From an uncultured Ectothiorhodospiraceae bacterium (GTDB lineage Bacteria > Bacteroidota > Ignavibacteria > SZUA-365 > GCA-2699105): DNA of 64,000 nt. The position numbers and the translations under genes were made by a program. Position 1 is the first letter of the stretch, and the number at the start of each line of letters is the position of its first letter. Location of the stretch: positions 51,764 to 115,763 of the forward strand of contig CAYPBB010000004.1 of the NCBI GenBank assembly GCA_964408855.1, in the 5' to 3' direction. The notes beneath the pieces were generated by a model. That model searched no databases, had not been told where the DNA came from, and worked only from the letters and a program-made list of their open reading frames with translations. Of this stretch, positions 10,138-57,126 are shown one piece after another.

Positions 10138-10914
10138 ATGAAATACAGCATCGCACTCATCCTGTTTTTTCTTTCCGTTAGCACTCTGTTTGCCCAGAGC
10201 GCGGCAAACAAGCCGCAGGAATTGCGCTTCCATGAACGCATGTCCGAATCCATCAGCCACATGTCGGCAGAAGCGCCGCGGATACCGGCATTACCTGCCG
10301 ATGAAAAGCTGCCCGGGCAAAAAAGCAGGTTTCTCGGGACGGTGTATTCATTACTGCTTCCGGGCATGGGTGAATTATATGCCGGGAAGTTCGAACGGGG
10401 ACGGCTGAATCTCATCATCGAAGGGATTCTGTGGCTGGGATTTACGGGACTCTCGTCCTACGGCGGGTGGGTCGACGATCAGGCTAGAACCTTCGCGGCG
10501 GTGCATTCAGGCGCGAATTTTGACGGGAAAGATGACGGATACCGGACAGATATCGAAAACTTCGACGACATTTATGCATACAACAACGCTCGTCTGAACG
10601 ATAACAATCTTCAAGCCCTGTATCCGGACGATCCTTCGGCGGGGTATTACTGGAAGTGGGACAACTCCGCAAACAGGGATAAATACGAGACGATGCGCAT
10701 CAAATCCGATGAGATGTACAACGGCGCCAACTTCGTCGTTATCGGGATGATTGCGAATCGTATCTGGAGCGCTATCAAGGCATCGCTTGCCGTTAGGGAT
10801 CACAATAGCGAATTGAAACAAAACCTCGGCTATCTGCCCGATATGCAACCGAGAGTAACAACGTGCAATGGAACCGTCGATGGTATAGAATTCCAGTTTT
10901 CGACGCGTTTTTAG
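10138..10914 (+). CDS. hypothetical secreted/outer-membrane protein
   Basis: Signal peptide MKYSIALILFFLSVSTLFAQSA. C-terminal residue F. LLPGMGELYAGK motif of a Bacteroidota-type family of unknown function. Confidence 0.5.
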   Translation: MKYSIALILFFLSVSTLFAQSAANKPQELRFHERMSESISHMSAEAPRIPALPADEKLPGQKSRFLGTVYSLLLPGMGELYAGKFERGRLNLIIEGILWLGFTGLSSYGGWVDDQARTFAAVHSGANFDGKDDGYRTDIENFDDIYAYNNARLNDNNLQALYPDDPSAGYYWKWDNSANRDKYETMRIKSDEMYNGANFVVIGMIANRIWSAIKASLAVRDHNSELKQNLGYLPDMQPRVTTCNGTVDGIEFQFSTRF

Positions 10915-11129
10915 GGATTTTCGCATTTCCTCAGATTAATATTTGCTAAATATTTCACGATATCGTAACAATTACGTTGCGAGTGCGTATATTGGAACTG
11001 TTGGTTATATCCTGACTGTTCTTTGAAAAAGTGACTGATGAGTGTAACAAATGTACTTGCCGGTACGTCTTATACCTGTACCAGGTATTTGTCATTGACA
11101 GACACAATAAAAAGACCAATGATACGTCT

Positions 11130-11813
11130 ATGCATACGAATGAGCCTATCGAGAAACTATTGACACGGAAAGAACGCGAGCGTTTGCTTCGCAGAAGCGA
11201 AATCCTTGCGGCCGCACGCGAAGTATTCGCGCTGAAAGGATTCGCCGAAGCCACGCTCGACGAGATTGCCGAAAAAGCGGAATTCGGGAAAGGAACGCTG
11301 TATAACTACTTCGCAAGCAAGGAAGAACTGTTCGCCGCCGTTATCACGGAAGGGTACAACCATGTTGTCGAAGTGCTGGAAACCATCAGCAAGGAAGAAA
11401 GCGACAATTTTGTCGAAACATACCTCGAAATTTCTCGTATTCTCCTGACGCATCTGATGAAAGATGTGGGACTGTTTATCCTTCTTCTCCGCGATAGTCA
11501 ACCGGTAGCTCACAGCAAGCTGATGGAATATTTTCCTCTGCTTGTCGATCTGACCGAACGCCCTCTTAAACGGGCGATAGCAAATGGAACGGCAAAACCA
11601 TGCCCAACCTCCGAGGTTGCATCGATTTTCATCAGCACCATTTTTTCCATGTTCAAGCATCACTATTTCATGGAAACGGCAAGCTGCCACGAAATGAGGT
11701 TCGATTCTATCCCAACATACTCGCAAGAGGAGATCGAAAAACAGATAGTCAAAACCGAAGAGATATTAATGATGACCTTTTTTGAGGGAATCCTGTCGAA
11801 ACGAGACGAATGA
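11130..11813 (+). CDS. TetR/AcrR family transcriptional regulator
   Basis: N-terminal HTH (EILAAAREVFALKGFAEATLDEIAEKAEFGKGTLYNYF) typical of TetR. In-frame ATG at 11130. Lies upstream of the efflux operon. Confidence 0.8.
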   Translation: MHTNEPIEKLLTRKERERLLRRSEILAAAREVFALKGFAEATLDEIAEKAEFGKGTLYNYFASKEELFAAVITEGYNHVVEVLETISKEESDNFVETYLEISRILLTHLMKDVGLFILLLRDSQPVAHSKLMEYFPLLVDLTERPLKRAIANGTAKPCPTSEVASIFISTIFSMFKHHYFMETASCHEMRFDSIPTYSQEEIEKQIVKTEEILMMTFFEGILSKRDE

Positions 11814-11886
11814 TATGTGTGGCGCCGGATGAACGGCCCGGCGCCGGTTTCTATCCGAAATCATAACGATATAACAGGAACACTGA

Positions 11887-13224
11887 ATGATTTACAAACT
11901 CTCTTTGTCCATCGTCTTCGCTCTTTGCGTCTCAGCCCAAATGGCTGTTGCACAGCAGGTGATTACGCTGGACGATGCAATTCGGATTGCGTTGGAGAAC
12001 AACCGCGATTTGAAAATCGCCGATCTCGAGACGCAGAAAGCCGACGCGCAGGTACGCCAGGCGTACGGTTTGGCGATGCCGAGTGTGACAGCTTCCGGGG
12101 ATTATGCGCGCGCATTGAAGAAACAAGTGTTTTTCCTTCCGGCAAAGTTCATGGATCCCGATGCGCCGGATGGAAAAACCGTACCGATAGAAGTAGGCTC
12201 CGATCACTCGCTGACGATGGGATTTACGGCATCGCAGGTGCTGTTCAATTCCGCCGTTTTCACCGGCGTCGGAACCGCCAAAATTTACCAGCAGGCATCG
12301 CGCGAACTTCGGACTGCGACGCATCAGTCGACCATCGCAAAAACCAGGCGCTCGTTCTATCAGGTGCTGTTTATCCGCGATGTGCTCGAACTGACCCGCG
12401 CCAGTTTCAAGAATGCGGAAGACAATCTGAATAACGTCCGCATTCTGAATAGGCAGGGTATCGTATCGGATTACGATCTCATCCGCGCGGAAGTACAGAC
12501 CGAGAACATTCGTCCAATGGTAACCCAGGCCGAGAGCAATGTTGTGCTTGCCGAAAACGGACTGAAGATGACGCTCGGACTTTCGCCTGACAAGGATATC
12601 CAGATCGATGGAGATCTGGAATTCATCCCTGTCGACGCCGCCGTTCTTCAACGTGCCGACGAACTGCTGCTCGAGAACAATGCGAGTCTCAAGGCGCTTA
12701 GCCTGCAATCGGAAGTGAACGACGAACTTGTCGCGATCAATCGTTCCGAATATCTGCCGACGCTCGCAGCGTATGGTACGTACCAATGGCTCGGACAGAA
12801 CAACGAGTTTTCGAAACTGACCGACGATCTGATATCCACCTCGCAGGTAGGGCTGAACATCAGTTTGAATCTGTTCAACGGATGGCAGACCACCGCGAAA
12901 GTCGATGCCGCGAAAATCGCCTACTATCAGAGCCAGGAGCAACTCATGGCGGCAAAAGACGCGATGAAAACGCAATTGCGGAATATCCGTTTCAAGCTTG
13001 AAGAAGCCCGCAAGCGGATCGAAGCTCAGGGCAAGACAGTGGAACAAGCCGAGAAAGGCTACAAAATTGCGACGACGAGGTATTCCTCCGGATCGGGTAC
13101 CCAGCTTGAAGTGAACGACGCCGACGTTGCATTGATGCAGGCGCGAGTCAACAAGGCGCAGGCAGTCTACGATTACAATGTCGCCAAAGCCGACCTGATG
13201 GAAATTCTCAACATCGAAGAATAG
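11887..13224 (+). CDS. TolC-family outer membrane efflux protein
   Basis: 445 aa. Signal peptide. Two repeated alpha-helical/beta-barrel halves. LDDAIRIALENNRDLK-type N-terminal motif typical of outer membrane factors. Confidence 0.85.
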   Translation: MIYKLSLSIVFALCVSAQMAVAQQVITLDDAIRIALENNRDLKIADLETQKADAQVRQAYGLAMPSVTASGDYARALKKQVFFLPAKFMDPDAPDGKTVPIEVGSDHSLTMGFTASQVLFNSAVFTGVGTAKIYQQASRELRTATHQSTIAKTRRSFYQVLFIRDVLELTRASFKNAEDNLNNVRILNRQGIVSDYDLIRAEVQTENIRPMVTQAESNVVLAENGLKMTLGLSPDKDIQIDGDLEFIPVDAAVLQRADELLLENNASLKALSLQSEVNDELVAINRSEYLPTLAAYGTYQWLGQNNEFSKLTDDLISTSQVGLNISLNLFNGWQTTAKVDAAKIAYYQSQEQLMAAKDAMKTQLRNIRFKLEEARKRIEAQGKTVEQAEKGYKIATTRYSSGSGTQLEVNDADVALMQARVNKAQAVYDYNVAKADLMEILNIEE

Positions 13225-22259: not shown

Positions 22260-24041
22260 ATGTCTGAAGAACAAACAATTGTTACCGAATCTGCTGTTCT
22301 ATCGGTGCAACCCGGCGCGAACATTGTAGCCAGCGTCGGAAAAGTCGTGCTTGACAGCGACTACAGCAAGGACGATTTCGCCAAATTTAAATCGATGTAC
22401 GAGAACACCCTGACCACCCTTCGTCCTGGGGAAATCATTCAGGGTAAAATCGTCAATATGACCAAAGACTACGTTACGATTGACATCGGCTTGAAATCCG
22501 AAGGTCTCGTTCCGATCGATGAGTTTTCGAACGCGTCGGAACTCGAACGCGGTCAGGTGGTGGAAGTGTATCTCGAACAACTCGAAGACAAAGACGGCAA
22601 TGTGCAGCTTTCCCGTAAGCGCGCCGACTTTGTCCGCATTTGGGAACGCATCCAGGATGCTTACGACAATCTTGAAATTTTACAGGGACGCTGCATCCGC
22701 CGTATCAAGGGCGGTATCGTCGTCGATCTCATGGGCATCGACGCATTCCTTCCGGGTTCGCAGATCGATATCCGCCCGGTGCGCGATTTCGACGCCTACC
22801 TCGGCAAATCCCTCGACGTACGCGTCGTGAAGATCAACCAGCCCGCCGAAAACATTGTCGTCAGCCGTAAGGCGATTATCGAAGAGCAGATTACCGGTCA
22901 GCGCAAAGCGATCCTCGACAGCCTCGAAAAGGGTCAGATCCTCGAAGGTATCGTGAAAGCCATTGCCGACTTCGGCGTGTTCATCGATCTCGGCGGCGTG
23001 GACGGTCTCGTCCATATCACCGACCTCTCGTGGGGCAGAGTGAACCATCCGACCGAAATCGTGAAGCTGGACCAGACGGTGAACGTTGTTGTTCTCGATT
23101 TCGACACCGAAAAGAAACGCATCTCTCTGGGCATGAAGCAGCTTCAGCCGCACCCGTGGGAAAACATCGGCGAGAAATACCCCGTCACCACGAAGGTGCG
23201 CGGAAAGGTTGTTTCGCTTGCCGATTACGGCGCATTCATCGAAATCGAAAAGGGTATCGAAGGCTTGATCCACATTTCCGAAATGAGCTGGACACAGCAC
23301 ATCAAGCATCCGTCGCAGGTCGTTTCCATGGGACAGATGGTGGACGCTGTGATCCTCAATCTCGATGTGGAAGAGAAGAAAATCTCCCTCGGTATGAAAC
23401 AGCTCGAACCCGATCCGTGGGCGAACCTCATCGCGAAATACCCGGTCGATTCGCAGCACAACGGTATCGTGCGCAACCTCACCAACTTCGGCGTGTTCGT
23501 TGAACTCGAACCCGGCGTCGACGGTCTGGTGCATATTTCCGACCTCTCATGGACGAAGAAAATCCGCCACCCGGGAGAAATCGTGAAGAAGGGCGACAAT
23601 ATCGAAGTCGTCATTCTCGGCATCGACCAGGATCAGCGCCGCATTTCGCTCGGTCACAAGCAGGTGCAGGACAATCCGTGGGATGTGTTCGAAACGCAGT
23701 ACGCGGTCGGCATCGAATGCGAAGGCAAGGTAGTCCGCCTGATTGAAAAGGGCGTGATTGTCGAGCTTCCCGCCGGCGTGGACGGTTTTGTTCCGGCATC
23801 GCAGCTTGCCAGCAAGCAGGTGAAGAACATTCCGGAAGCGTTCAAGGAAGGCGACAAGCTGCCGTTGAAGGTGATAGAATTCGACAAGGAGAACAAGAAG
23901 ATTGTTCTTTCGGTCACCGAATACCTCAAGGGTAAGGACGCCGAGACCGTGGATGCATACCATGCAGCGCACGGCCTCGTCAACGCGCCGGACAAGGAAA
24001 CCAACGAAGTTTCCCCCGACGATTTGAACTTCGACCTGTAA
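22260..24041 (+). CDS. rpsA: 30S ribosomal protein S1
   Basis: 593 aa with six S1 domains (repeated G.V....FGAFV.L..G..GL.HIS..SW patterns). Strong RBS AAGGAGA. Confidence 0.9.
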   Translation: MSEEQTIVTESAVLSVQPGANIVASVGKVVLDSDYSKDDFAKFKSMYENTLTTLRPGEIIQGKIVNMTKDYVTIDIGLKSEGLVPIDEFSNASELERGQVVEVYLEQLEDKDGNVQLSRKRADFVRIWERIQDAYDNLEILQGRCIRRIKGGIVVDLMGIDAFLPGSQIDIRPVRDFDAYLGKSLDVRVVKINQPAENIVVSRKAIIEEQITGQRKAILDSLEKGQILEGIVKAIADFGVFIDLGGVDGLVHITDLSWGRVNHPTEIVKLDQTVNVVVLDFDTEKKRISLGMKQLQPHPWENIGEKYPVTTKVRGKVVSLADYGAFIEIEKGIEGLIHISEMSWTQHIKHPSQVVSMGQMVDAVILNLDVEEKKISLGMKQLEPDPWANLIAKYPVDSQHNGIVRNLTNFGVFVELEPGVDGLVHISDLSWTKKIRHPGEIVKKGDNIEVVILGIDQDQRRISLGHKQVQDNPWDVFETQYAVGIECEGKVVRLIEKGVIVELPAGVDGFVPASQLASKQVKNIPEAFKEGDKLPLKVIEFDKENKKIVLSVTEYLKGKDAETVDAYHAAHGLVNAPDKETNEVSPDDLNFDL

Positions 24042-24065
24042 GCCGGTTTCACTCGTGAATTGTAT

Positions 24066-24093
24066 GGGCGCAGCATGCTGCGCCCTTTTTTAT
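24066..24093 (+). terminator. rho-independent terminator of rpsA
   Basis: Hairpin GGGCGCAGCA/TGCTGCGCCC followed by TTTTTTATT. Confidence 0.65.
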
Positions 24094-24099
24094 TGTGGG

Positions 24100-24540
24100 C
24101 TGGTAAATGTGTGCAGGCGAAATTCTTCATACCCCTTTGGACAAAGGGGTCGATTGCCGCTCAAAATTCTTGCGGCAATCGGGGGAATGTGTTCTTCGCG
24201 AAAATCCTATATACCACAGGCGCTCGCATTCAATGGTGAATACGCCTACCACGCTTTGTCATCCTGGGCGCGCAGCGCCCGGGATCTCGTAGGATAGCAG
24301 CCTCCAGTTGGGCAAGCAGAAACCTGGTGTTTCCCGTGCATTACCGGCATCGCAATCCCCCCGCCTCGCCGGACTGACAGCCTACATTTCCGCTCCGCCT
24401 TCCCCGCGACGAGCCGACCCCCAAGTCGTCTACGTCCGGCTACTGCCGCGGGGTACTAAGACGTGCCGCGCAGACTCTTACCGTGCCGGACAGCCTTAGA
24501 CGGATAGGACTCAAGCGTGGGGGAAGGAGAGATACTGTTC
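24100..24540. other. GC-rich structured non-coding region (candidate ncRNA or integration-site remnant) preceding the low-GC insert
   Basis: No convincing ORF (only short high-GC ORFs). Multiple local hairpins (CCCCTTTGGACAAAGGGG; GATTGCCGC..GCGGCAATC; CGACG..CGTCG). Segment TCGCAATCCCCCCGCCTCG at 24340-24358 resembles a tRNA/tmRNA T-arm plus acceptor 3' end. Sub-motifs recur at 26.96-27.35 kb. Confidence 0.3.
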
Positions 24541-24890
24541 GGGACACTGGGGCAATGTGCACAGTGCTTGTCTTGTATAGCCCTAAACGATGTTTAGCGG
24601 GTGTCATTTGTTAGGCAGAGTTGCATTTAGTAGAAAAAGTTACGAGATTGAGTGTGGTGTACAAATATTCTTGGCAACGGATATATTGTGGGTGCGTGGC
24701 ATAACTGTTCTCATTAATTTCGAATAGCCAAACCATAGACGATGCCAGCCAAGCAATTGTTTGAGTTAACTTAGCGGACTAAGATAATGAAATCTATTTT
24801 TGTTTATCATAGCCATTGAATAATTGAAAAATGATTTGAGTCGAAGCAAGGTGGTTGAGTAAAAGTTGGAATAGTAATGGAGGCATAAGT

Positions 24891-26798
24891 ATGGCCAATG
24901 ACAATACGCTAATAAGTCTAGCAATGTTGAAGTCCTCAATTGACGCTAAGAAGGATTACCTTGAAAGGCTGCGTCCGTTTATTATGGATGCGCTATTTAA
25001 ACAACGTCCGGAGGTTGTGAGTGATTATATAGTATCTACATATCTAAAGGATATGTATGGACTTGTCATCCCACAGCAAGTAACGCAGATATTATTGCAA
25101 AGAATTGCTAGGGATGGGTGTTTGGTAAGAGAACACGGGGTATACCGTATTGTTAATCTCGATGAATCTGTCCAACTTGATACTGTTAAGGCAACAGAGC
25201 ATATTGGGAATGTTATTAATGGTCTAATCAGGTATTCATCCACCACAGTGTCCCCAATTGAAAGCAAGGATGAAGCGATTAATCAACTTATCGCATTTCT
25301 ATCTGAATTTTCCATTCCGTGTGTAAAGTATTATCTGCGAAATACTGCACTGCCGGATATTGCTAATACCCAAGGATCTGAGAATGTACTGGTAGCAAAT
25401 TATGTAATATATATATCTGAAAATGAACATGAACTGTATTCTAGTTTCCTTGTAATGCTGCAGGGACATATGCTCGCGAACTCACTCGTTTGCCCGTCTT
25501 TATCTGAGGCGCCGAAGTCGTATAAAAACGTAACATTTTTCTTTGATACTCGGCTAATCCTTGCTCTCGCTGGCTTAGATGGAAATATAAAAAAACATGC
25601 AACTTTGTCACTTTGTGAACTGATTCGCAAATTGCATGGTACGATGTCTGTGTTTTCGCATACGATGGAAGAAGTGCAACGTGTAATTACTGTTGCATCA
25701 GATTTTATCGATTCAACGGAGGGTAGGGGGTCTATCGTTCGAGAAGCTAGAATGGCTAAAAGAACGAAATCAGATCTGTTGCTGATTGCAGCGGATCTTG
25801 AGATCGAGTTAGCGAATATTAATATAAAGGTTCAGCCGACGCCGAGGTATCATCGGGAGTATCAAATAGATGAAACAATGTTCGAAAACATACTAACTGA
25901 TGAGATTGACTATTATAATCAAAAGGCGATTGAGTATGACGTCAATACTGTTCGCAGTATTTATGCATTAAGAGAGAGGCTTTCGCCGAATACAATCGAA
26001 CGCTGTCGAGCTGTGGCCGTAACCTCCAACACAGCTTTTGCAAATGCTGCATATCAATATGGACAAAAATATTTAGAGACAAGTTCAGTGTCAAGTGTGA
26101 TTACGGATTTTAGTCTGGCAAATATGGCTTGGTTAAAGACGCCGATGGAATCGCCCCAAATACCACAGAATGAATTAATTGCCTTTGCATATACTGCCCA
26201 TCAGCCAACTAGGAGATTTATCGAGGCATTGGAACGTGAGCTTGATAAATTGGAACATGAGGGACGGATGACCGAGCGTCATCTTCAGTTATTGCGTAGC
26301 AGGACAGAAAGCCCGGAGTTGATGAGATACACTTTAGGTAGAGAGGAGTCCTTAAATTATAAGACCATGACCGAGATAGCTGAAAATATTGAGAAGGAGA
26401 TTAAAGAGGAGGAGAAAAGATTACGCGAGTTACGGGAGAGTGAGCTAAACAAAATAATCGAAGAGAAAAGCCACATTCTCGATATGCTGACAAGTAATCA
26501 AAGGGAGACGTATGATGGGGTGAAAAAAGATGCAGACAAAATATCAAGCAGATATTCACTGATCGCCTCGATTTTTATCGCTATCATATCTCTTGGTGTT
26601 GTATTGTTTGTTACATTCTATCCCAATTATGAATGGTATTTTATGCTTCCAATATGGATAGCATATGTTGTGATAGCATATACACCTATGATAAACGGTG
26701 TAAATATTTGTGTATTACACAAAAAAATTAAAGAATCGATTTATAAACGTTATATAAAGAAAATGGAAAGAAGATTAAGAGTGAAGTTGTTGCCATAA
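24891..26798 (+). CDS. orphan low-GC island protein: large soluble N-terminal domain, coiled-coil segment, C-terminal two-helix membrane anchor (candidate standalone defence/abortive-infection effector)
   Basis: Single long ORF in a roughly 2.3 kb AT-rich insert (about 40% GC against 57% flanks). GGAGG RBS 9 nt before ATG 24891; track start 24855 is in the same frame. Charged coiled-coil (EKEIKEEEKRLRELRESELNKIIEEK) precedes two C-terminal TM helices (YSLIASIFIAIISLGVVLFVTFY; WYFMLPIWIAYVVIAYTPMI). No recognisable catalytic motif. Confidence 0.6.
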   Translation: MANDNTLISLAMLKSSIDAKKDYLERLRPFIMDALFKQRPEVVSDYIVSTYLKDMYGLVIPQQVTQILLQRIARDGCLVREHGVYRIVNLDESVQLDTVKATEHIGNVINGLIRYSSTTVSPIESKDEAINQLIAFLSEFSIPCVKYYLRNTALPDIANTQGSENVLVANYVIYISENEHELYSSFLVMLQGHMLANSLVCPSLSEAPKSYKNVTFFFDTRLILALAGLDGNIKKHATLSLCELIRKLHGTMSVFSHTMEEVQRVITVASDFIDSTEGRGSIVREARMAKRTKSDLLLIAADLEIELANINIKVQPTPRYHREYQIDETMFENILTDEIDYYNQKAIEYDVNTVRSIYALRERLSPNTIERCRAVAVTSNTAFANAAYQYGQKYLETSSVSSVITDFSLANMAWLKTPMESPQIPQNELIAFAYTAHQPTRRFIEALERELDKLEHEGRMTERHLQLLRSRTESPELMRYTLGREESLNYKTMTEIAENIEKEIKEEEKRLRELRESELNKIIEEKSHILDMLTSNQRETYDGVKKDADKISSRYSLIASIFIAIISLGVVLFVTFYPNYEWYFMLPIWIAYVVIAYTPMINGVNICVLHKKIKESIYKRYIKKMERRLRVKLLP

Positions 26799-26829
26799 AG
26801 ATATCAATGGTGATACGAAAATGCGGATG

Positions 26830-27440
26830 CGTCCATAAATCCCTGCATGTATGTCAGTGCGAGACTGAGCATGTTGAATACATTGGCCCCCCCGGTGGTG
26901 CTTTCGTCAGGTCCGAGCATGACGGACTGTACTCAGGACAAAAGGGGGCAGCAATTGCATTGCGAAATCCGCACTGAGTATCGGGGGTTCTGGAAGGCGG
27001 CGCGGTTGACGAATCTGTCTCTGCGAGAACAGGCAGCCTACTATCCCCCCGCTCCGTATTTCTTCGCGCTGCAGCGAAGCCTTGCGCTCAGAAACGGATC
27101 GTGCCCTCCGGCAATGGCCGGATGAAGACACCTTGCTCACTCCTCTCAGTCCGCCTGAGGCGGACTGATCGTCGTGAAAGGGGCATAAAGAGTTTGCGAA
27201 ATCCGCACTGAGAATCGGGGGTTCTGGAAGTCGGAATCGTTTACCCCGTCCCGGTCCGTCCTTGAGAGTCCCTGCGCGTCTAATAGATGGCCCCCCGCCT
27301 CGTCACGGCTTCGCCCTGACGAGTCGACCCCCACGTCGTGGAGGTTTGAAGAAAACACCCAAGCCGTGTGGGTTTGAAGAAAATACCCGCGCCGCGGGGG
27401 TATGAAAACACGCCGCCCAATATCCATGCGGGTGCGGGAG
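26830..27440. repeat. GC-rich repeat cluster on the right flank of the low-GC insert (partial direct repeats of the left-flank motifs)
   Basis: About 39-nt direct repeat GCGAAATCCGCACTGAG(T/A)ATCGGGGGTTCTGGAAG(G/T)CGG at 26961-26999 and 27196-27234. CAGCCTAC(T/A)... GCTCCG at 27033-27055 matches 24376-24398. CCCCCCGCCTCG at 27294-27305 matches 24347-24358. GACGAG(T)CGACCCCCA(C)GTCGT at 27318-27339 matches 24398-24419. Tandem GGTTTGAAGAAAA(C/T)ACCC x2 at 27346-27386. Confidence 0.5.
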
Positions 27441-27581
27441 GCGGGTTGTGGTTTCGTGGGAATTATTCGCTACATTTGTATCGGATCTGTATGCCTGAAG
27501 AAGGCGCAATTGTGCCGGTCAGACTACAGAATCAACGAATCTGACGATTTTACTCACATTTTGACACAGGAGAAGAGTTTC

Positions 27582-28664
27582 ATGGCAACGCGCTCGCATA
27601 ACTTTTTTGCCGGACCGGCAGTGCTTCCGTTATCTGTTGTGGAAGCCGCCCGCGACGCCGCATGGGATTTTGCGGGAATGGGCATGTCGATCATGGAAAT
27701 CAGCCACCGCTCGAAGGAATTCGATAAGGTGATGCTTGAAGCCCAGGAAGACGCTCTCACGATCATGGGGCTTTCGAAGGACGAATATTCGGTTGTGTAC
27801 GTGGGCGGAGGCGCAAGCACCCAGTTCGCGATGGTGCCGATGAACTTCCTCCATACCAAAGCAGATTATGTCAATACCGGCGAGTGGGCAACCAAAGCGA
27901 TCAAAGAGGCGAAACTGTTCGGTACGCCCAATGTCGTTGCCACCTCGGAACCCGATAATTTCAACTATATCCCGAAAGACCTTCCCTGGTCTGCCGATGC
28001 GGACTATGCGCATATCACTACCAACAATACCATCTACGGAACCCGCTGGAACGAAATGCCCAACGTCGGCAATGTACCATTGGTCGCCGATATGTCGTCG
28101 GACATGCTCAGCCGCGAACTGGACTACAGTAAATTCAGCCTGATCTATGCAGGCGCGCAGAAGAACCTGGGACCCGCAGGCGTGGTGCTGGTCGTCATCA
28201 AGAAATCGTGGCTCGAAAAAGCCCGCACCGACATCCCCACCATGCTGAAATACAAAATCCACGTTGATAAGGATTCGATGTACAACACGCCGCCGGTGTT
28301 CCCGGTGTACGTTGTCGGACAGACGCTGAAGTGGATTCTGAAGGAAGGCGGACTCGGCGCTATCGAGGAACGCAACATTCGCAAGGCGAAGCTGATCTAC
28401 GATATGATCGATGCGTATCCCGAGTTCTACAAAGGCGCCGTGAAGGCAAAGGAAGACCGCTCGCTCATGAACATCACCTGGAACCTCCCGACGCCGGAAC
28501 TCGAAGACAAGTTCGTGGCGGAAGCCAAAGCGCAGAAAATGCTGGGGCTCAAAGGACACCGTTCCGTCGGCGGCATCCGCGCCAGCACATACAATGCCTG
28601 CCCGGTGGAATCGGTCGAGCTTCTCGCGAAGTTCATGGAAGAGTTCTACAAAGCGAACAAGTAA
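27582..28664 (+). CDS. serC: phosphoserine aminotransferase
   Basis: Class-V aminotransferase / SerC motifs (FFAGPAVLP, PLV(A)DMSS, QKN). RBS AGGAGAAG before ATG 27582. The ORF-track start 27402 extends into the upstream repeat region and is rejected. Confidence 0.9.
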   Translation: MATRSHNFFAGPAVLPLSVVEAARDAAWDFAGMGMSIMEISHRSKEFDKVMLEAQEDALTIMGLSKDEYSVVYVGGGASTQFAMVPMNFLHTKADYVNTGEWATKAIKEAKLFGTPNVVATSEPDNFNYIPKDLPWSADADYAHITTNNTIYGTRWNEMPNVGNVPLVADMSSDMLSRELDYSKFSLIYAGAQKNLGPAGVVLVVIKKSWLEKARTDIPTMLKYKIHVDKDSMYNTPPVFPVYVVGQTLKWILKEGGLGAIEERNIRKAKLIYDMIDAYPEFYKGAVKAKEDRSLMNITWNLPTPELEDKFVAEAKAQKMLGLKGHRSVGGIRASTYNACPVESVELLAKFMEEFYKANK

Positions 28665-28687
28665 TTTTTGCGACATATACGTCGAAA

Positions 28688-28731
28688 CAGGACGGCCATC
28701 CCTCTCGGATGGCTGTTTTTTATTGTACCGA
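28688..28731 (+). terminator. rho-independent terminator of serC
   Basis: Hairpin ACGGCCATCC-ctctc-GGATGGCTGT followed by TTTTTTATT. Confidence 0.6.
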
Positions 28732-28846
28732 CATTCAGGTATGTCGCGGAGGAGACACATCCGATTTGTTGGCGTGATAATAAAAAGAAGATAGTGTCTA
28801 AAATAGCGTAAAACAGTTTTCTCATCTTATTGCAAGCGGAGGCTTT

Positions 28847-29692
28847 ATGTTATTTCGTTTTCTTCTGTTTCTCGGGGTGATTGTCTTGTTCAACGCCCCT
28901 ACATCCTTTGGTCAGATTCTCTATACCGATATCGTGCCCGATACGGTACTCTGTACGCCGCCGGGACCGGGCGGTCACACCAATTATTATATCGATATGA
29001 ACCATGACGGTATTTTCGATTTTCAGATGACCCATTTTTACGCCAAGGTTGACTGGGTATCGGCGGAAGCGTACAGTTATAGCGACGGTATTCACGCAAA
29101 TTACCCGTGTAAAATTCTGACCAATGTATACAACCACGGGATGGCTTTCAGCGTCGGCGACACAATCGGTCCGAATACGCAGGGCACGTGGTATAACGGT
29201 CTGGAGTTCGGCGGAATGACATCGGTGTATCTCAGCAATTATAATGAAACGTATTACCCCTGGCACGATGCCGCGGATAAATACCTTGCGGTGACGATGG
29301 AGGATGCGCAGCACACCTATTATGGATGGGTCTGCATGGACGTGGGACCAAACTCGGCATGGCTGAAAGTGAAGGCGTTTGCGATGAATTTCGCGCCGGA
29401 TTCATATATCACAGCCGGGCAATGGACGACGACGGGTATCGACATGGCCGCCGCTGTTGCCGGGAGTATCTCGGTATATCAGGCTCCGGGTTTTATCATG
29501 GTCAGAATGGATGATACGCCTGGCCAGGAACAAACAATTGCCGTTTATTCTGTTCTGGGAGAGCGCGTTGCATCGGTAACGCAGACAGGCGCGGTGACTG
29601 CTATCCCATCGCGCGGCCTGCCGAAAGGCATGTATCTGGTGACTGCAACCACGGGCGAAACAATACGTTACGGGAAGGTGTTATTACGGTAA
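28847..29692 (+). CDS. hypothetical secreted protein with T9SS C-terminal sorting domain
   Basis: Signal peptide MLFRFLLFLGVIVLFNAPTSFGQ. C-terminal IAVYSVLGERV...GMYLVTATTGETIRYGKVLLR fits the T9SS CTD pattern. RBS GGAGG. Confidence 0.6.
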   Translation: MLFRFLLFLGVIVLFNAPTSFGQILYTDIVPDTVLCTPPGPGGHTNYYIDMNHDGIFDFQMTHFYAKVDWVSAEAYSYSDGIHANYPCKILTNVYNHGMAFSVGDTIGPNTQGTWYNGLEFGGMTSVYLSNYNETYYPWHDAADKYLAVTMEDAQHTYYGWVCMDVGPNSAWLKVKAFAMNFAPDSYITAGQWTTTGIDMAAAVAGSISVYQAPGFIMVRMDDTPGQEQTIAVYSVLGERVASVTQTGAVTAIPSRGLPKGMYLVTATTGETIRYGKVLLR

Positions 29693-29885
29693 GGAAGGTG
29701 TAAGCAATAAATACGCACGCAATGTTGAACCGCTGGCACAGTTGCTCATTGCGTGCATACTAATCAGAATTATATGCGTCTTTAATGCGTTTGGGTCCCC
29801 CGGAAAATGGGATTTAACAACCGGTTAATACGTAATACGAAAAATGGGAATGTCATCAATCTGATATATTGACACCGCAGGTAAT

Positions 29886-29915
29886 CGGGAGGTTACACTT
29901 CCCGTTTCTTTTTTA
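29886..29915 (+). terminator. putative terminator after T9SS-cargo gene
   Basis: Hairpin CGGGAGgttacaCTTCCCG followed by TTTCTTTTTT. Confidence 0.4.
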
Positions 29916-30051
29916 ATCGAAAGCCAGAGTAGTCTCGATAGGGTGCATGAGGTGTCTTGGTTTTCGAATGCAGAATCGTGTCCGGCTGTTTCTATCAGAC
30001 TACTGCGTACAGTTTATCGCCAAAAATCCGTATCTTTCTTGTCCGAATTGA

Positions 30052-40704: not shown

Positions 40705-42129
40705 CTATTTTGTCGAGAAATTCCTGCCGAGTATGTAGTCCGCCGCCGCATGCCCGCTTCTGACCGCTCCTTCGAGCGTCGCGGGGAGCGACGTACCGGT
40801 CCAGTCGCCTGCAATCGCGATTGCGCCATTCGCTATTGCGCCATTCGCGATTGCGCCATTCGCTATTGCGCCATTCGCTATTGCGCCATTCGCTATTGCG
40901 CCATTCGCTATTGCGCCATTCGCGATGGGGAACCGGGAGCGTACAGCATTGAGCCCCGGCGCGGGGATGAAGGTCGCAAACCGCTCGCGGACCGTTTTCA
41001 TGCGATAGAGTTCGCCCTGAGCGAGTGAAGGATATGCAGCATACAATTCCCGTGCAATCGTTCGTTCAAGTTCTTCGATCGGCTGATTGCTGACGGAGTC
41101 CGCCGCGGATATCACGCCGCTGTAGCGCCACCCTCCGTCCGCTGCCGAGCCTTTTGAGAACAGCCATTGGAGAGAGGTACCGAGGAATGCCGTCATTAGT
41201 TCATTTGTGAATTGCCGCTTCGACCATATATGCACCGAAGCGATTTCAGAAGGTACAAAAACGCCCGGAGGCGGAACCGGTATCGCCGCTTCGGGCGACG
41301 CAGCGGCAAGACGTTCATGCTGACGGTGCGATAATGCCAGTACAATAGCGGAGATGCTGTATGCATCCTTGTTCGTATTGATAGTGAAGCCGCTGCCGGC
41401 AGGAATGATCGATTCCACCATGGTATGGATCTGTATGCTGCCGCCGTTGCGAAGGATAGAGGAAAGCGCATCGTCGACATACAGCGCGCTCAAATCGGTA
41501 GACGGGAGAAGAAATGTCGATGCTGCTTTGCCGCCCAGAAACGCTTCCCTCAATACGGTCGCAAAAAGCATTGCGGAGGCATCGCGCGGGCGGGCGTTCA
41601 TCGTCGCGAGGACGATCGGTTCCCATAGCCGGGCGAGGGCGGCGGGTCCCTGACGCAGATGCGTCAACCACTCAAGCACGGAGCGAGTGTCCAGCGCCTG
41701 GAGCCTTTTACGCGAGAGCATCGCCGCGGCGCGGACGACATTCAGGAGCGCGAGCCGCTCGGCGAACGATAACATGTCGAATCCAAGAAATGCCGACAAT
41801 GCATCGAGAGGCCACGGGAGCCGCTTTGCTACAAGCGTCGCTCTATCCCCGTTGGCTGAGATAAACGGTACGCGGAGATTTCGGATAGGTACAAGTTTCG
41901 TATCGGCGCCGATGGTGCGGAGAAACGCGAGCATCTCCGTATAGCATCCCATCATGATATGCTGACCATTGTCGAGACGTTCGCCCGATATGCTGTCGGT
42001 GAAAGCGAACGCCCTTCCTCCGCAATGGGATTTTGCTTCGAACAGCGTAACGCGTATACCGCGCGAAGCCAGCCGGACCGCGGCTGCCAGCCCGGAAATC
42101 CCTCCCCCGATAACGGCGCAACCGGTCAT
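40705..42129 (-). CDS. hpnE: squalene-associated FAD-dependent desaturase (HpnE-like amine-oxidase family), with in-frame (ANGAI)x7 insertion
   Basis: N-terminal dinucleotide fold (AVIGGGISGLAAAVRLA). C-terminal GDWT...EGAVRSG FAD-binding motif. Position after the hpnC and hpnD homologues. Start overlaps the hpnD stop by 4 nt. Confidence 0.7.
   Translation of the reverse strand: MTGCAVIGGGISGLAAAVRLASRGIRVTLFEAKSHCGGRAFAFTDSISGERLDNGQHIMMGCYTEMLAFLRTIGADTKLVPIRNLRVPFISANGDRATLVAKRLPWPLDALSAFLGFDMLSFAERLALLNVVRAAAMLSRKRLQALDTRSVLEWLTHLRQGPAALARLWEPIVLATMNARPRDASAMLFATVLREAFLGGKAASTFLLPSTDLSALYVDDALSSILRNGGSIQIHTMVESIIPAGSGFTINTNKDAYSISAIVLALSHRQHERLAAASPEAAIPVPPPGVFVPSEIASVHIWSKRQFTNELMTAFLGTSLQWLFSKGSAADGGWRYSGVISAADSVSNQPIEELERTIARELYAAYPSLAQGELYRMKTVRERFATFIPAPGLNAVRSRFPIANGAIANGAIANGAIANGAIANGAIANGAIANGAIAIAGDWTGTSLPATLEGAVRSGHAAADYILGRNFSTK
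40811..40924. repeat. 15-bp perfect/near-perfect tandem repeat (ATTGCGCCATTCGCK) x7.6 inside hpnE coding sequence
   Basis: Seven full units at 40820-40924 plus a partial unit at 40811-40819. Differs only at the last unit base (T/G). Encodes ANGAI pentapeptide repeats on the minus strand. Confidence 0.9.
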
Positions 42130-44501: not shown

Positions 44502-45137
44502 TTGTTCTCGATCGCAGCGGTTACAATAAATGAGTGTATGATTAAGACAACGATAATATCGGCGGCGTTACCTGCGCTAATAACGGCATGGATCGCCGTT
44601 CATCCCGGGTTGTTATTTCAACATGGAGCGGATATGGCAGACGACATTGATACCACGAACGGACTTGCTGAGGCGATGTTTGGCGCCGGTTGTTTTTGGG
44701 GCGTTCAGGCGGAATTCGACAAAACACCCGGCGTTCGGTCGACCCGGGTTGGGTACAGCGGAGGGCTGTGGGATAACCCAACGTACAAGGATGTCTGTTC
44801 GGATATGACGGGTCACGCGGAAGTCGTGCATGTCTATTTTGATCCTGTCGAGATTGCGTACGATTCGCTTCTGACGCTTTTTTTTCAGCTTCACGATCCG
44901 ACGCAACTGAACCGGCAGGGACCGGATGTCGGCACGCAATACAGGTCGGTGATTTTTTATTATAATGAAGAGCAAAAGAGAGCCGCAGAAGAAATACTCC
45001 GGCAGCTCGACATGTCGGGGAGATATTCTCGTCCAGTCGTTACACAGATCAAACCTGCCGAAGTGTTCTGGGACGGCGAGGAGTACCACCAGAAGTACCT
45101 CGAAAAACGCGGTTTGACCTCGTGCCATACGCAGTGA
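44502..45137 (+). CDS. msrA: peptide-methionine (S)-S-oxide reductase
   Basis: GCFWG active-site motif and conserved downstream MsrA segments (VGYSGG, TQYRSVIF). Start is uncertain. ATG at 44634 has a GGAG RBS and would give a 167 aa cytoplasmic form. The longer form 44502/44538 would add a TM segment. Confidence 0.8.
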   Translation: MFSIAAVTINECMIKTTIISAALPALITAWIAVHPGLLFQHGADMADDIDTTNGLAEAMFGAGCFWGVQAEFDKTPGVRSTRVGYSGGLWDNPTYKDVCSDMTGHAEVVHVYFDPVEIAYDSLLTLFFQLHDPTQLNRQGPDVGTQYRSVIFYYNEEQKRAAEEILRQLDMSGRYSRPVVTQIKPAEVFWDGEEYHQKYLEKRGLTSCHTQ

Positions 45138-45353
45138 TAGAACAGCGTAGCAACTAGCAACGTAGGGATTGCACAAGTTGAAGAATTCGTACTACCGTTT
45201 ATTCGTCGTAGGGATACAGTGATCGCGCCGGTTGTGGGATAAACCTGACGACAAGCTATCTGTAATCAGGTATTCTCGTCTTTTACTGTAGCTTTTGTTG
45301 ATATCGATTGTTCTTATTCATAGATTCATGACCAATAGTGTTTTTGTGGATAT

Positions 45354-46379
45354 TTGAGTTCTACAATGAGTAAGGGTGCTATGGGAGGTTATCCTTCTTT
45401 TGTTTTCATATCGCCTCCAGCGATGATTCTCGCGTTTACTCAATGCAGCGACGATGAGCCAACCAAGCCGCCGGTTATTACTGAGCCGGATACCACAAGC
45501 AACGACTTTGTCTGGGATATTACCCAGATCGGTGTTCGCCACACGGCATTATATGACGTGGAAGCAATCTCCGATACCGATGTCTGGATTTGCGGAGAGA
45601 TACATTTCCCCGATACGTGCCAAAACGATTCATCGGGTAATATTATTCGCCCTTTCAATATTGCACATTGGGATGGGAAACAGGGGACGTTCAGCCGCTT
45701 ACATTGGAATAAGGATAACCCAAACGAATTCAACCCAGTGTATGGCATTAAGGCCTTTACTTCAAAAGAAGTATGGTTTTCTGCGGGAGGTGAGATTGTA
45801 TGCCTGTTACAAGGAGAATTCATCTATCGGACAATTCCAACTAGTCTTTTTGAATACACTGGGACCAATCATCTCGATGGCACAAAAAAATAATCTATAT
45901 CTGGCCGGTTTGAAGGGCGTAATACTTCATTTTGATGGGAAGAACACTTTCACTCCTATCAACTCTGGCACGGATAAGGAGATTCAGGACATGTGGATGG
46001 CAGACGGTGCTATCATGTGCGTGGTATCCAACGGAATAAGGGTCCTGCATATGAAACGGAAATCCTGAAGATAAACGATAAAACCGTCACTCGCTGGCGC
46101 GATACATTGATGTATACCGGCATGTCCGGTATATGGTTTACCGATACAAGCCACATCTTCCTCGCCGGTCCTGGATTCCGTTTGTATGAAAACGGCATAT
46201 GGAAAACACAAACACTTCCTCATAACGGCTTCTCGCAATGTCTTAGAGGAGTGGCCCTGAACGATCTCTTTGTAGCAGGTCATGCCGGCGCTATCCAGCA
46301 CTTCAATGGAAAAGCATGGAAGCACTATCCGGATGCCGTTCCATCAGGACTCGAAATCACGTATTTCTATATGTCGTAA
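45354..46379 (+). pseudogene. frameshifted lipoprotein gene with beta-propeller-like repeats (two frameshifts; pseudogene or assembly/sequencing errors)
   Basis: Three overlapping ORFs (45354-45893 frame 0, 45454-46068 frame 1, 45993-46379 frame 0) share a repeating motif (VW..GE.., LYLAGLKGVILHFDGK, IFLAGPGFRLYENGIWK, LFVAGHAGAIQHFNGKAWK). The first shift maps to an A7 homopolymer followed by TAA at 45884-45893; one fewer A restores the frame. Lipobox LAFTQC at the N-terminus. Lower GC than flanks. Confidence 0.45.
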
Positions 46380-57080: not shown

Positions 57081-57126
57081 ACGTACCTCGCTTCAACACA
57101 ATGTTGAAATATTCCACTACAGTTCA

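What the first reader, a model, noticed from the sequence alone, without database searches (positions are those of the whole stretch)
24440..27440. Low-GC single-gene insert next to structured repeats: candidate novel standalone defence / abortive-infection effector
Between rpsA and serC, which are otherwise 57% GC core genes, lies a roughly 2.3 kb AT-rich segment (about 40% GC). It carries one long ORF (24891-26798, 635 aa). The insert is bracketed by GC-rich regions that share short direct repeats: CCCCCCGCCTCG at 24347 and 27294, and GACGAG.CGACCCCCA.GTCGT at 24398 and 27318. This pattern is consistent with att-like integration scars. The protein has a large N-terminal soluble domain with no motif I can place, a strongly charged coiled coil, and two C-terminal transmembrane helices. 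The arrangement of a soluble sensor/enzyme module, a coiled coil and a membrane-inserting tail is typical of single-gene antiphage abortive-infection effectors. It is also seen in other toxin-like island cargo. No integrase, partner gene or antitoxin-size ORF is visible, so it would act alone if functional.
Basis: partly seen in the sequence, partly recalled or inferred. Interest (0 to 1): 0.8.

Follow-up and report, generated by a model that had tools for sequence, protein, structure and literature searches.

The report
Orphan membrane-anchored PIN nuclease, likely defence
The low-GC insert between rpsA and serC carries one intact gene from a large, unnamed, horizontally spread family whose predicted fold is a winged helix, a VapC-like PIN nuclease domain, a coiled coil and two membrane helices; in other bacteria the gene usually sits inside type I restriction-modification operons, so it is a credible but untested candidate antiphage effector.

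Summary
A ~2.3 kb block (about 24550-26840) has 39% GC against 52.7% in the rest of the window, about 7 SD below background. It holds one intact 635-aa ORF (24891-26798) with a GGAGG ribosome-binding site. The flanking repeats exist, with coordinates off by 3-10 nt.

No Pfam, NCBIfam, PADLOC, PHROG or PDB sequence match was found. The protein still belongs to a large family: 1,893 clusters at E<=1e-30, in more than 20 phyla, nearly all ~638 aa.

In 34 of 82 non-redundant homologue loci the gene lies next to hsdS, typically as hsdM-hsdS-X-hsdR. That is the slot I recall prrC occupying. None of 80 control loci has hsd genes, and no other partner recurs.

Relatives of this organism have rpsA directly followed by mtaB and lack the gene.

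The defence reading is supported by association only. The att-scar idea is not supported. This window's copy is an orphan with no hsd genes nearby.

I read it as a new, uncharacterised variant of R-M-embedded nuclease effectors.

The parts
24550..26840 (.). Low-GC block, about 2.3 kb, holding the gene and its AT-rich leader
   Evidence: GC transitions at 100-nt resolution. GC is 0.39-0.42 against a 0.527 background.
24550..24878 (+). AT-rich non-coding leader upstream of the gene, presumably holding its promoter (inferred)
   Evidence: GC 0.29-0.43. Only short ORFs of 57 aa or less, without family matches. Sigma-70-like matches at 24658-24687 and 24761-24788 are no more frequent than in shuffles.
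24879..24883 (+). Shine-Dalgarno GGAGG, 7 nt before the ATG
   Evidence: Read directly from the sequence.
24891..26798 (+). Gene X, 635 aa: winged helix, helical linker, PIN-like domain, coiled coil, two TM helices
24891..25160 (+). N-terminal winged-helix domain (aa 1-90)
25518..26150 (+). PIN-like nuclease domain (aa about 210-420) with invariant D219, H257, E261, D350 and N380
26358..26558 (+). Charged coiled-coil part (aa 490-556) of one continuous ~87-residue helix that runs on into TM1
   Evidence: Model helix 490-576.
26559..26693 (+). Two hydrophobic transmembrane helices (aa 557-575 and 583-601)
   Evidence: Kyte-Doolittle peaks 2.79 and 1.67. Two C-terminal hydrophobic segments in 120 of 141 family members. 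Model helices.
26706..26777 (+). Basic amphipathic C-terminal helix (aa 606-629). It implies that both termini are cytoplasmic (inferred from the positive-inside rule).
   Evidence: Model helix 606-629. Sequence HKKIKESIYKRYIKKMERRLRVKL.
24066..24095 (+). rpsA intrinsic terminator, which marks the end of the upstream native unit
   Evidence: 8-bp GC stem followed by TTTTTT.
24357..24429 (+). Left-flank repeat boxes: C-box 24357-24368 and 34-nt box 24396-24429
26960..27339 (+). Right-flank repeat boxes: 41-nt box twice (26960-27000 and 27194-27234, 95%), C-box at 27045-27056 and 27291-27302, and 34-nt box 27306-27339

Best explanation
Gene X encodes a membrane-tethered nuclease of the PIN superfamily. 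I propose that it is a horizontally acquired, single-gene antiphage or anti-mobile-element effector of the kind usually embedded in type I restriction-modification operons.

Anatomy, shown by a confident model. The protein has an N-terminal winged helix and a helical linker. A VapC-like PIN domain follows, with a conserved polar cluster (D219, H257, E261, D350, T378-x-N380, D/E406, R361, K416). Then comes one long helix that runs from a charged coiled coil straight into a two-helix membrane hairpin. A basic C-terminal helix ends the protein.

Proposed working, all inferred. The protein sits in the inner membrane as a coiled-coil oligomer with both termini in the cytoplasm, and it is kept inactive. 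An infection cue switches on the PIN nuclease. RNA is the most likely substrate by analogy with VapC, but DNA is not excluded given the winged helix. The cue could be inhibition of, or activity by, a partner type I R-M complex. It could also be an event at the membrane during nucleic-acid entry. Nuclease action would stop translation or replication, and so stop phage growth, probably at a cost to the cell.

This window's copy is intact but orphan. It sits between rpsA and serC, far from any hsd gene. It would have to act alone or with an R-M system encoded elsewhere in the genome.
For: Fold:
- AlphaFold model with pLDDT 90 and pTM 0.79.

Catalytic-type conservation:
- D219, H257, E261, D350 and N380 are invariant in 141 diverse members.
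- D219, E261, D350, N380, R361, W414 and K416 are also kept in plasmid homologues only 23% identical, from Enterococcus, Pantoea and Klebsiella.
- hhalign places 'FYlDT' on the first PIN motif 'fIDTS'.

Membrane anchor:
- Two C-terminal hydrophobic helices in 120 of 141 members.

Defence context:
- HsdS is adjacent in 34 of 82 non-redundant loci, HsdM in 28 and HsdR in 25, in the order hsdM-hsdS-X-hsdR on one strand.
- The X ORF often abuts or overlaps hsdR.
- None of 80 control loci centred on rpsA has hsd genes.
- Other neighbours are SIR2, GmrSD-like, MNT/HepT, AAA_21+DUF4276, KAP NTPase, Cas12a and ImmA/IrrE.
- No other conserved partner exists.

Foreignness:
- The gene is absent from relatives at this locus.
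- It occurs in 104 of 185,579 species representatives, spread over more than 20 phyla.
- Its GC is below that of its flanks in 74 of 76 loci.

Precedents:
- PrrC is silenced by EcoprrI and activated by T4 Stp (PMC2610378; PMC12707154).
- Genes embedded in R-M, BREX and Hma systems are often defence genes (10.1101/2024.01.29.577857; PMC11411939).
- A single-protein PIN system without an antitoxin, DS-3, defends E. coli (PMC13092281).
Against: - No experiment or direct test of defence was possible.
- No PADLOC model matches.
- No Pfam PIN family matches any of 63 members. Profile-profile similarity to VapC is insignificant (probability 2%), so the PIN assignment rests on a predicted fold.
- The position after strand 4, where I recall canonical PIN domains carrying an Asp, holds an invariant Asn here. 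The 3-D active-site geometry could not be inspected because no coordinates were available.
- About half of the family, including this copy, is not next to any hsd gene, and some neighbours are housekeeping genes.
- Neither the substrate nor the trigger is known.
Confidence: 0.55

Rival explanations
1. X is an obligate accessory or guard subunit of type I R-M enzymes, on the PrrC model. It is held silent by HsdM/S/R and is released when a phage anti-restriction protein disables the enzyme. On this view the window's orphan copy is inert, or it works in trans with an hsd locus elsewhere in the genome.
For: - X sits in the hsdS-to-hsdR slot in about 40% of loci, often with abutting ORFs.
- The closest homologues of the window protein are mostly hsd-embedded (L013-L020).
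- PrrC and RloC set the precedent, including orphan rloC copies proposed to work in trans (PMC2610378).
Against: - 43 of 82 loci have no hsd gene within 10 kb.
- Plasmid homologues are solitary.
- There is no ABC ATPase domain and no PrrC model hit.
- No hsd gene or relic lies in the window.
- Physical interaction was not tested.
Confidence: 0.2
2. X is a selfish toxin-like or addiction gene, or a weapon in competition between mobile elements. It hitch-hikes in variable islands without protecting the host from phage.
For: - Patchy distribution, low GC, and presence on plasmids among transposases and resistance genes.
- A PIN fold typical of TA toxins.
Against: - No antitoxin-sized partner is conserved.
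- Specific, oriented embedding between hsdS and hsdR is not expected for a generic addiction gene.
- The gene is almost absent from viral contigs, with 2 hits in 2.9 million.
Confidence: 0.1
3. The killing module is the membrane hairpin, acting through pore formation or depolarisation by a coiled-coil oligomer. The PIN-like domain would be a non-catalytic nucleic-acid sensor.
For: - Coiled coil plus two-TM tail, with weak sub-threshold similarity to DUF2207_C, MCU and CorA C-termini.
- Asn at one position where I recall canonical PIN domains carrying an Asp.
- From my own knowledge, many abortive-infection effectors are small TM modules.
Against: - Strict invariance of D219, E261 and D350 across 141 members down to 23% identity argues for chemistry, not just binding.
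- The TM region is the least conserved part of the protein.
Confidence: 0.08
4. The flanking repeats are attL/attR scars of a site-specific integration event that delivered the cassette.
For: - Non-chance direct repeats bracket the gene: a 12-nt exact repeat and a 34-nt repeat at 82% identity, about 2.9 kb apart.
- In Methylovulum, a 40-nt piece of the upstream RNR gene's 3' end recurs 2.6 kb downstream, beyond the homologue.
- Short-read contigs of the same organism break reproducibly in both flanks.
Against: - No integrase or tRNA is present.
- The repeats are imperfect. They lie 120 and 450 nt outside the GC transitions.
- The right flank has its own internal duplication, so a repeat-rich native intergenic region fits equally well.
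- Homologue loci share no flank similarity.
- The contig breaks do not coincide with any shared junction sequence.
Confidence: 0.12
5. X is a native housekeeping membrane RNase that happens to be AT-rich.
For: It is intact, has a good ribosome-binding site, and lies among core genes.
Against: - It is absent next to rpsA in all 80 related loci.
- It is present in only 104 of 185,579 species representatives.
- No other part of the window is as AT-rich.
Confidence: 0.02

Closest known systems
VapC-type PIN-domain ribonucleases (toxins of VapBC modules), e.g. PDB 3zvk_A, 5x3t_B, 7vwo_A
   Different: - No detectable sequence-profile similarity.
- The domain is about 210 aa, with a helical insertion carrying an extra invariant Asp (D350).
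- Asn replaces one canonical Asp.
- There is no VapB antitoxin.
- The domain is fused to a winged helix, a coiled coil and a membrane anchor in a 635-aa protein.
PrrC / RloC anticodon nucleases linked to type I R-M (EcoprrI)
   Same: A single nuclease gene sits inside a type I R-M locus. The paradigm of a latent RNase guarding the R-M enzyme comes from PMC2610378 and PMC12707154. The exact order prrA(hsdM)-prrB(hsdS)-prrC-prrD(hsdR) is from my own knowledge. X occupies the hsdS-to-hsdR slot in about 40% of loci.
   Different: - The fold is unrelated: X has no ABC ATPase head and no PrrC model hit.
- X has a membrane anchor.
- Half of the X family, including this copy, is not hsd-linked.
Single-protein PIN defence system DS-3 (DefensePredictor) and the embedded candidates HEC-03 (ABC ATPase + PIN) and HEC-09 (HTH + NYN/PIN-like)
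   Same: They set a precedent that PIN-superfamily nucleases without an antitoxin act in, or are candidates for, phage defence. They also show that genes embedded in R-M-like systems are enriched for defence (PMC13092281; 10.1101/2024.01.29.577857). HEC-09 shares the arrangement of an HTH followed by a PIN-like domain.
   Different: [quoted passage not shown]
- HEC-03 needs an ATPase partner.
- HEC-09 gave no protection in that study.
- The PADLOC library, which holds candidate systems, gives no hit to X.
- None of them is described with a coiled coil and a two-TM tail.
- I did not compare sequences with DS-3 directly.
Nuclease-plus-transmembrane single-gene defence proteins (e.g. HEPN-TM, Shield ShdA with RmuC+TM), cited from my own knowledge and the title of PMC10270631
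   Same: The overall logic of a nuclease domain fused to a membrane anchor in a stand-alone defence gene.
   Different: The nuclease folds differ (HEPN, RmuC). Homology was not tested here beyond the negative PADLOC scan.

Membership tests
PIN-domain superfamily | Three-layer alpha/beta/alpha fold with a parallel five-stranded sheet, as in VapC | tested here: met
PIN-domain superfamily | Cluster of conserved acidic residues (Asp after strand 1, Glu/Asp after strand 2, Asp after strand 4, Asp/Glu after strand 5) forming a metal site | tested here: inconclusive
   D219 and E261 are invariant at the expected positions. The strand-4 position has an invariant T378-x-N380, so Asn rather than Asp. 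Position 406 is D in 109 of 141 members and E in 8. An extra invariant D350 lies in an inserted helix. The register is inferred from secondary-structure order. 3-D distances were not measured because no coordinates were available.
PIN-domain superfamily | Sequence-profile match to a curated PIN family | tested here: not met
   No PIN family at E<=1 in any of 63 members. The PDB profile search found none. hhalign against a 44-sequence VapC alignment gave probability 2%, aligning only the first motif.
PIN-domain superfamily | Metal-dependent nuclease activity | not testable with these tools
   This needs biochemistry.
VapBC type II toxin-antitoxin | Adjacent small antitoxin gene (VapB) co-transcribed with the toxin | tested here: not met
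   No conserved small neighbour across 82 loci. In hsd operons X directly follows hsdS. Only non-matching short ORFs flank the window gene.
PrrC/RloC-type R-M-linked anticodon nucleases | Gene embedded in a type I R-M locus | tested here: not met
   Met for the family at large (HsdS adjacent in 34 of 82 loci, against 0 of 80 controls). Not met for this window's copy, which has no hsd gene or relic.
PrrC/RloC-type R-M-linked anticodon nucleases | N-terminal ABC-ATPase domain and C-terminal anticodon-nuclease motif | tested here: not met
   No ATPase or PrrC hit in Pfam, NCBIfam or PADLOC. The fold is a winged helix plus PIN.
PrrC/RloC-type R-M-linked anticodon nucleases | Silencing by the R-M enzyme and activation by a phage anti-restriction factor | not testable with these tools
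   This needs genetics or biochemistry.
Catalogued antiphage systems (PADLOC-DB v2.0.0, 2023) | Significant match to a model of a known or candidate defence protein | tested here: not met
   The only hit is LeoBC at E=0.059 over the coiled coil. Newer DefenseFinder and PADLOC releases were not available.
Site-specifically integrated genomic islet | Integrase or recombinase, plus near-identical direct repeats (att) at the exact boundaries of the foreign DNA | tested here: not met
   There is no integrase or tRNA. The repeats are 82% identical over 34 nt plus 12 nt exact, and they are displaced 120-450 nt from the GC transitions.
Site-specifically integrated genomic islet | Empty site in close relatives | tested here: inconclusive
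   All 80 related loci lack X after rpsA. They are only 62-85% identical in RpsA. They carry mtaB rather than serC downstream, so no base-exact empty site is available.

The most novel reading that the evidence does not exclude
X founds a widespread, previously unnamed class of membrane-tethered PIN nucleases that work as a second line behind type I restriction enzymes. The protein would sit at the inner membrane where phage DNA enters. It would sense failure or engagement of the Hsd complex, or the entering nucleic acid itself, through its winged helix. It would then fire its nuclease. This would be a PrrC-like guard built from entirely different parts, and one that can also work as an orphan.
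Probability: 0.25. Interest if true: 0.75.

Novelty: new variant of a known kind. Interest (0 to 1): 0.55.

Why it matters
If confirmed, this would add a large family (about 1,900 clusters at 50% identity, in more than 20 phyla) to the catalogue of bacterial immune genes. It would be a second, structurally unrelated example of a nuclease lodged between hsdS and hsdR.

That would make an old question testable: how R-M systems are backed up when phages inhibit them. So far the answer rests largely on PrrC and RloC.

The domain combination is also unusual. A winged helix, a PIN domain, a long coiled coil and a membrane hairpin together suggest a link between events at the membrane and nuclease activation.

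The family has no Pfam, NCBIfam or PADLOC model. It is annotated 'hypothetical protein' even in cultured Pseudomonas, Methylovulum, Microbulbifer, Enterococcus, Klebsiella and Pantoea, so a model and a name would improve annotation straight away.

For this particular genome the finding is modest: one orphan, horizontally acquired candidate defence gene.

Tried and rejected
1. Direct sequence annotation failed. Pfam, NCBIfam, PADLOC, PHROGs and PDB (phmmer and profile) gave only sub-threshold coiled-coil or TM noise.

2. The first AlphaFold run, with 63 close homologues, was poor (pLDDT 69, residues 324-424 below 50). A 141-sequence diverse alignment fixed it.

3. hhalign of the central domain against a VapC alignment aligned only the first motif at 2% probability. 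jackhmmer for PIN proteins among the fetched loci found only the seed itself.

4. The afdb50 fold library was unavailable.

5. Looking for an empty site through exact look-ups of RpsA and SerC returned only short contigs of the same organism. These break at 24171, 24165-27129 and 27114. I first read a 7-nt CGGCAAT at both breaks as a target-site duplication. After re-indexing, the motif lies at 24173-24179 and 27109-27115 and does not coincide with the breaks, so I rejected the idea.

6. The flanks gave nothing. There was no Rfam family, no tRNA, no Pfam hit for flank ORFs, and no DNA or protein similarity to any of about 170 fetched loci, including hsd genes. Fold z-scores were only modest, at -2.2 and -1.9.

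7. I looked for a conserved flank-repeat signature in six other solitary loci. Only Methylovulum showed a bracketing repeat.

8. Phage carriage is negligible. There was no hit in 50,697 phage records and only 2 of 2.9 million viral contigs.

9. Six literature searches found precedents but no description of this family.


Full report
**1. The observation**

The region between rpsA (22260-24041) and serC (most likely start 27582, end 28664) holds a sharp compositional trough. The 500-nt windows from 24501 to 27000 read 0.39-0.42 GC, against 0.53-0.58 on either side. At 100-nt resolution the transitions fall near 24550 and 26840.

The ORF itself is 0.389 GC and the rest of the window is 0.527. 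Background windows of the same length average 0.526 (sd 0.019) and never fall below 0.455. The block is therefore about 7 SD out, and nothing else in the 64 kb resembles it.

One long ORF fills the block: 24891-26798 on the + strand, 635 aa. GGAGG at 24879-24883 lies 7 nt before the ATG.

CCCCCCGCCTCG is at 24357 and 27291, with a degenerate copy at 27045. GACGAGnCGACCCCCAnGTCGT is at 24408 and 27318, inside a 34-nt match of 82% identity. The right flank also holds a 41-nt repeat (26960 and 27194, 95% identical) and three tandem 28-nt hairpin units (27327-27410). Shuffles expect none of these, and they occur nowhere else in the window.

There is no tRNA, no Rfam family, no integrase and no credible small partner ORF.

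**2. The protein has no name but a very large family**

Pfam, NCBIfam, PADLOC, PHROGs and PDB sequence searches give only sub-threshold coiled-coil or TM noise.

The word-indexed search nevertheless returns more than 700 homologues at 40-49% identity. Nearly all are 628-650 aa, none has a Pfam domain over the first 500 residues, and all are unnamed or 'hypothetical'. An exhaustive profile search of 1.84 billion cluster representatives finds 4,234 proteins at E<=1e-3 and 1,893 at E<=1e-30.

Among one genome per species (185,579 species), 104 encode a relative. They are spread over more than 20 phyla and include cultured Pseudomonas, Methylovulum, Microbulbifer and Stenotrophomonas. Plasmids of Enterococcus faecium, Klebsiella, Pantoea, Arthrobacter, Sporosarcina and Hymenobacter carry ~650-aa homologues at 23-25% identity, all annotated 'hypothetical protein'.

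Phage genomes have none, and only 2 of 2.9 million viral contigs do.

**3. Structure**

A first AlphaFold run on 63 close homologues was mediocre (pLDDT 69). A 141-sequence diverse alignment gave pLDDT 90 and pTM 0.79. The model shows, in order:

- a winged helix (aa 1-90);
- a helical region (93-200);
- an alpha/beta domain (about 210-420) with strands at 215-218, 251-255, 312-315, 374-378 and 403-405;
- more helices (423-481);
- one continuous helix from 490 to 576, running from a charged coiled coil into the first hydrophobic segment;
- a second hydrophobic helix (582-602);
- a basic amphipathic helix (606-629).

Hydropathy finds two C-terminal TM-grade segments in 120 of 141 family members.

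**4. Conserved residues**

Across the 141 diverse members only D219, H257, E261, D350 and N380 are invariant. T220, D295, E328, R355, R361, E370, T378, N411, W414 and K416 are at least 90% conserved. D219, E261, E328, D350, R361, T378, N380, W414 and K416 survive even in the plasmid homologues at 23% identity.

By secondary-structure register, D219-T220 follows strand 1, which is the PIN 'DT' motif. hhalign aligns it to 'IDTS' of VapC, although at only 2% probability. E261 follows strand 2, T378-x-N380 follows strand 4, and position 406 (D in 109 and E in 8 of 141) follows strand 5.

This is the PIN pattern as I recall it, with one Asp replaced by an invariant Asn and an extra invariant Asp (D350) on an inserted helix. 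I could not inspect the 3-D pocket because no coordinates were available, so catalytic competence is inferred, not shown.

No Pfam PIN family matches any of 63 members. The PIN assignment is therefore fold-level only.

**5. Genomic context of homologues**

I collected 86 loci, of which 82 are non-redundant. I detected Hsd proteins in them with profiles trained on annotated examples. HsdS is present in 34 of the 82 loci, HsdM in 28 and HsdR in 25.

The arrangement is stereotyped: hsdM-hsdS-X-hsdR on one strand. X lies directly after hsdS in 31 of all 86 loci, and its ORF often abuts or overlaps hsdR. In L001, for example, X ends at 9920 and hsdR starts at 9917.

As a control, none of 80 loci centred on rpsA (879 kb in total) contains any hsd gene under the same procedure.

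All-against-all clustering of neighbours finds no other recurrent partner. The next most frequent neighbours are SLFN/AlbA_2 ATPases, RhuM, ImmA/IrrE, HepT/MNT, GmrSD-like DUF262, AAA_21+DUF4276, SIR2_2 and transposases. Cas12a, KAP NTPase, DUF4143 ATPase and a DUF1156 methylase also appear.

In three gammaproteobacteria the gene sits alone, right after ribonucleotide-reductase genes. That resembles its solitary position after rpsA here.

The gene is lower in GC than its flanks in 74 of 76 loci, with a median difference of -9 points.

**6. This locus in relatives**

Eighty metagenomic loci with RpsA 62-85% identical share cmk-(ispH)-rpsA. In most of them mtaB follows within about 150-300 nt. 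None has X or serC after rpsA.

In the window, rpsA and mtaB (30052) are 6 kb apart and separated by X, serC and a T9SS-sorted protein. The rpsA-mtaB junction has evidently been remodelled in this lineage, and X is not an ancestral resident.

The gene is not conserved at the locus, and the low GC is not typical of the genome.

A base-exact empty site was not obtainable. Short-read contigs of the same organism break reproducibly at 24165-24171 (inside the loop of a hairpin) and at 27114-27129, so the block is its own 2,965-nt contig in several runs. I could not tell whether this reflects strain heterogeneity, coverage drop-outs or repeats elsewhere in the genome. A tentative 7-nt target-duplication reading failed on re-indexing.

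**7. The flanks**

The gene is separated from rpsA by 850 nt and from serC by 784 nt. Those are unusually long gaps for this gene-dense window.

Outside the AT-rich block the flanks are GC-rich (0.55-0.69) and full of hairpins, but they fold only modestly better than shuffles (z = -2.2 and -1.9). They match no RNA family, protein family or other fetched locus.

The shared boxes are short and imperfect. They are displaced 120 nt (left) and 450 nt (right) from the GC transitions, and the right flank has its own internal duplication. I therefore do not accept them as att scars. A repeat-rich intergenic region into which the cassette recombined explains them equally well.

A faint parallel exists in Methylovulum. 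There, 40 nt of the RNR gene's 3' end recur 2.6 kb downstream, beyond the homologue.

**8. Interpretation**

Shown:
- The gene is intact and horizontally acquired.
- It belongs to a large unannotated family.
- The predicted architecture is winged helix, PIN-like domain, coiled coil and two TM helices.
- A conserved PIN-type polar cluster is present.
- The association with type I R-M operons is strong, specific and oriented. The remaining contexts resemble defence islands.
- There is no conserved partner.

Inferred:
- The protein is a metal-dependent nuclease, anchored in the inner membrane with both termini inside.
- It oligomerises through the coiled coil.
- It acts as an antiphage or anti-mobile-element effector, possibly of the abortive type.
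- It may be controlled, PrrC-like, by the R-M complex where one is adjacent.

Precedents:
- PrrC is silenced by EcoprrI and activated by T4 Stp (PMC2610378; PMC12707154).
- TgvAB is embedded in a Vibrio type I R-M operon (PMC11411939).
- The 'guilt-by-embedding' survey found embedded genes to be enriched in defence functions, including PIN and NYN proteins (10.1101/2024.01.29.577857).
- The single-protein PIN system DS-3 works without an antitoxin (PMC13092281).

The window copy has no hsd gene or relic nearby. It must therefore act alone, act in trans, or be idle.

**9. Novelty and verdict**

The kind of thing is known: a nuclease effector lodged in R-M loci and defence islands. The family, its domain combination and its membrane tether are not described in any library or paper I could search. 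I rate it a new variant of a known kind.

Candidate defence effector: yes, by association. Att scars: no. 'Acts alone': plausible, but many relatives are R-M-embedded.

Interest is moderate to high for the family, but modest for this single orphan locus. My rough probabilities are:

| Claim | Probability |
|---|---|
| PIN fold | ~0.9 |
| Defence-related role | ~0.65 |
| Catalytically active nuclease | ~0.6 |
| Abortive-infection or PrrC-like mechanism | ~0.3 |

Noticed in passing
window 27327-27410: Three tandem 28-nt units lie just upstream of serC. Each is a short GC hairpin whose stem changes in a compensatory way between units (ACCCCCACGTCGTGGAGGT, ACACCCAAGCCGTGTGGGT, ATACCCGCGCCGCGGGGGTAT), followed by TTGAAGAAAA. 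On the minus strand two of them score as intrinsic terminators, yet no minus-strand gene lies to their right. Function unknown.
   Followed up: partly
window 24096-24550 and 26840-27581: Unusually long GC-rich (0.55-0.69) non-coding stretches flank the AT-rich block in an otherwise gene-dense window. They hold several hairpins (for example 24153-24179 and 27137-27177) and a 41-nt repeat (26960 and 27194). They have no Rfam or Pfam hit and no similarity to any fetched locus.
   Followed up: partly
window 24165-24171 and 27114-27129: Logan short-read contigs of the same organism end or start at exactly these positions, the right one in three independent runs. As a result 24165-27129 is a separate 2,965-nt contig. 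This could reflect strain heterogeneity (an allele without the block), coverage loss in GC hairpins, or repeats elsewhere in the genome.
   Followed up: partly
window 24042-30051: In most of the 80 related metagenomic loci rpsA is followed directly by mtaB. Here 6 kb (gene X, serC and a 281-aa T9SS-sorted protein) lies between them. The three closest relatives (L096-L098) also lack mtaB downstream. The rpsA-mtaB junction therefore looks like a variable spot in this lineage.
   Followed up: partly
L046 9742-9781 and 12383-12422 (Methylovulum miyakonense HT12): A 40-nt piece of the 3' end of the ribonucleotide-reductase gene upstream of the homologue is repeated (83%) 2.6 kb downstream, beyond the homologue. 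A weak protein-level relic of the RNR C-terminus is also present (tblastn E=0.04). This may be a trace of how the cassette inserts.
   Followed up: partly
L046, L070, L071: In three gammaproteobacteria (Methylovulum, Microbulbifer, Porticoccaceae) the homologue sits alone immediately downstream of ribonucleotide-reductase genes. This may be a recurrent insertion site.
   Followed up: no
L007 1-2602 and 8001-10046: One homologue (681 aa) lies about 5 kb from a Cas12a (Cpf1) gene, among Transposase_31 genes, a PIF1 helicase and an AAA_21/PIN pair.
   Followed up: no
window 40797-40941 and 57129-57183: Tandem 15-nt repeats. At 40797-40941 there are about nine copies of CATTCGCTATTGCGC inside the minus-strand ORF 40705-42129. 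At 57129-57183 there are three overlapping copies. In frame, these would encode pentapeptide repeats.
   Followed up: no
window 10501-12000, 45001-46500, 57001-57500: Milder GC dips (0.43-0.47) than at the finding. I did not examine them. They could be other acquired segments.
   Followed up: no
window 27402-27581: The mechanical serC ORF starts at 27402, and gene callers on other assemblies produced both 360-aa and 412-aa versions. The 360-aa start at 27582 (MATRSHNFF...) looks like the real one, so the upstream 180 nt is probably non-coding.
   Followed up: partly
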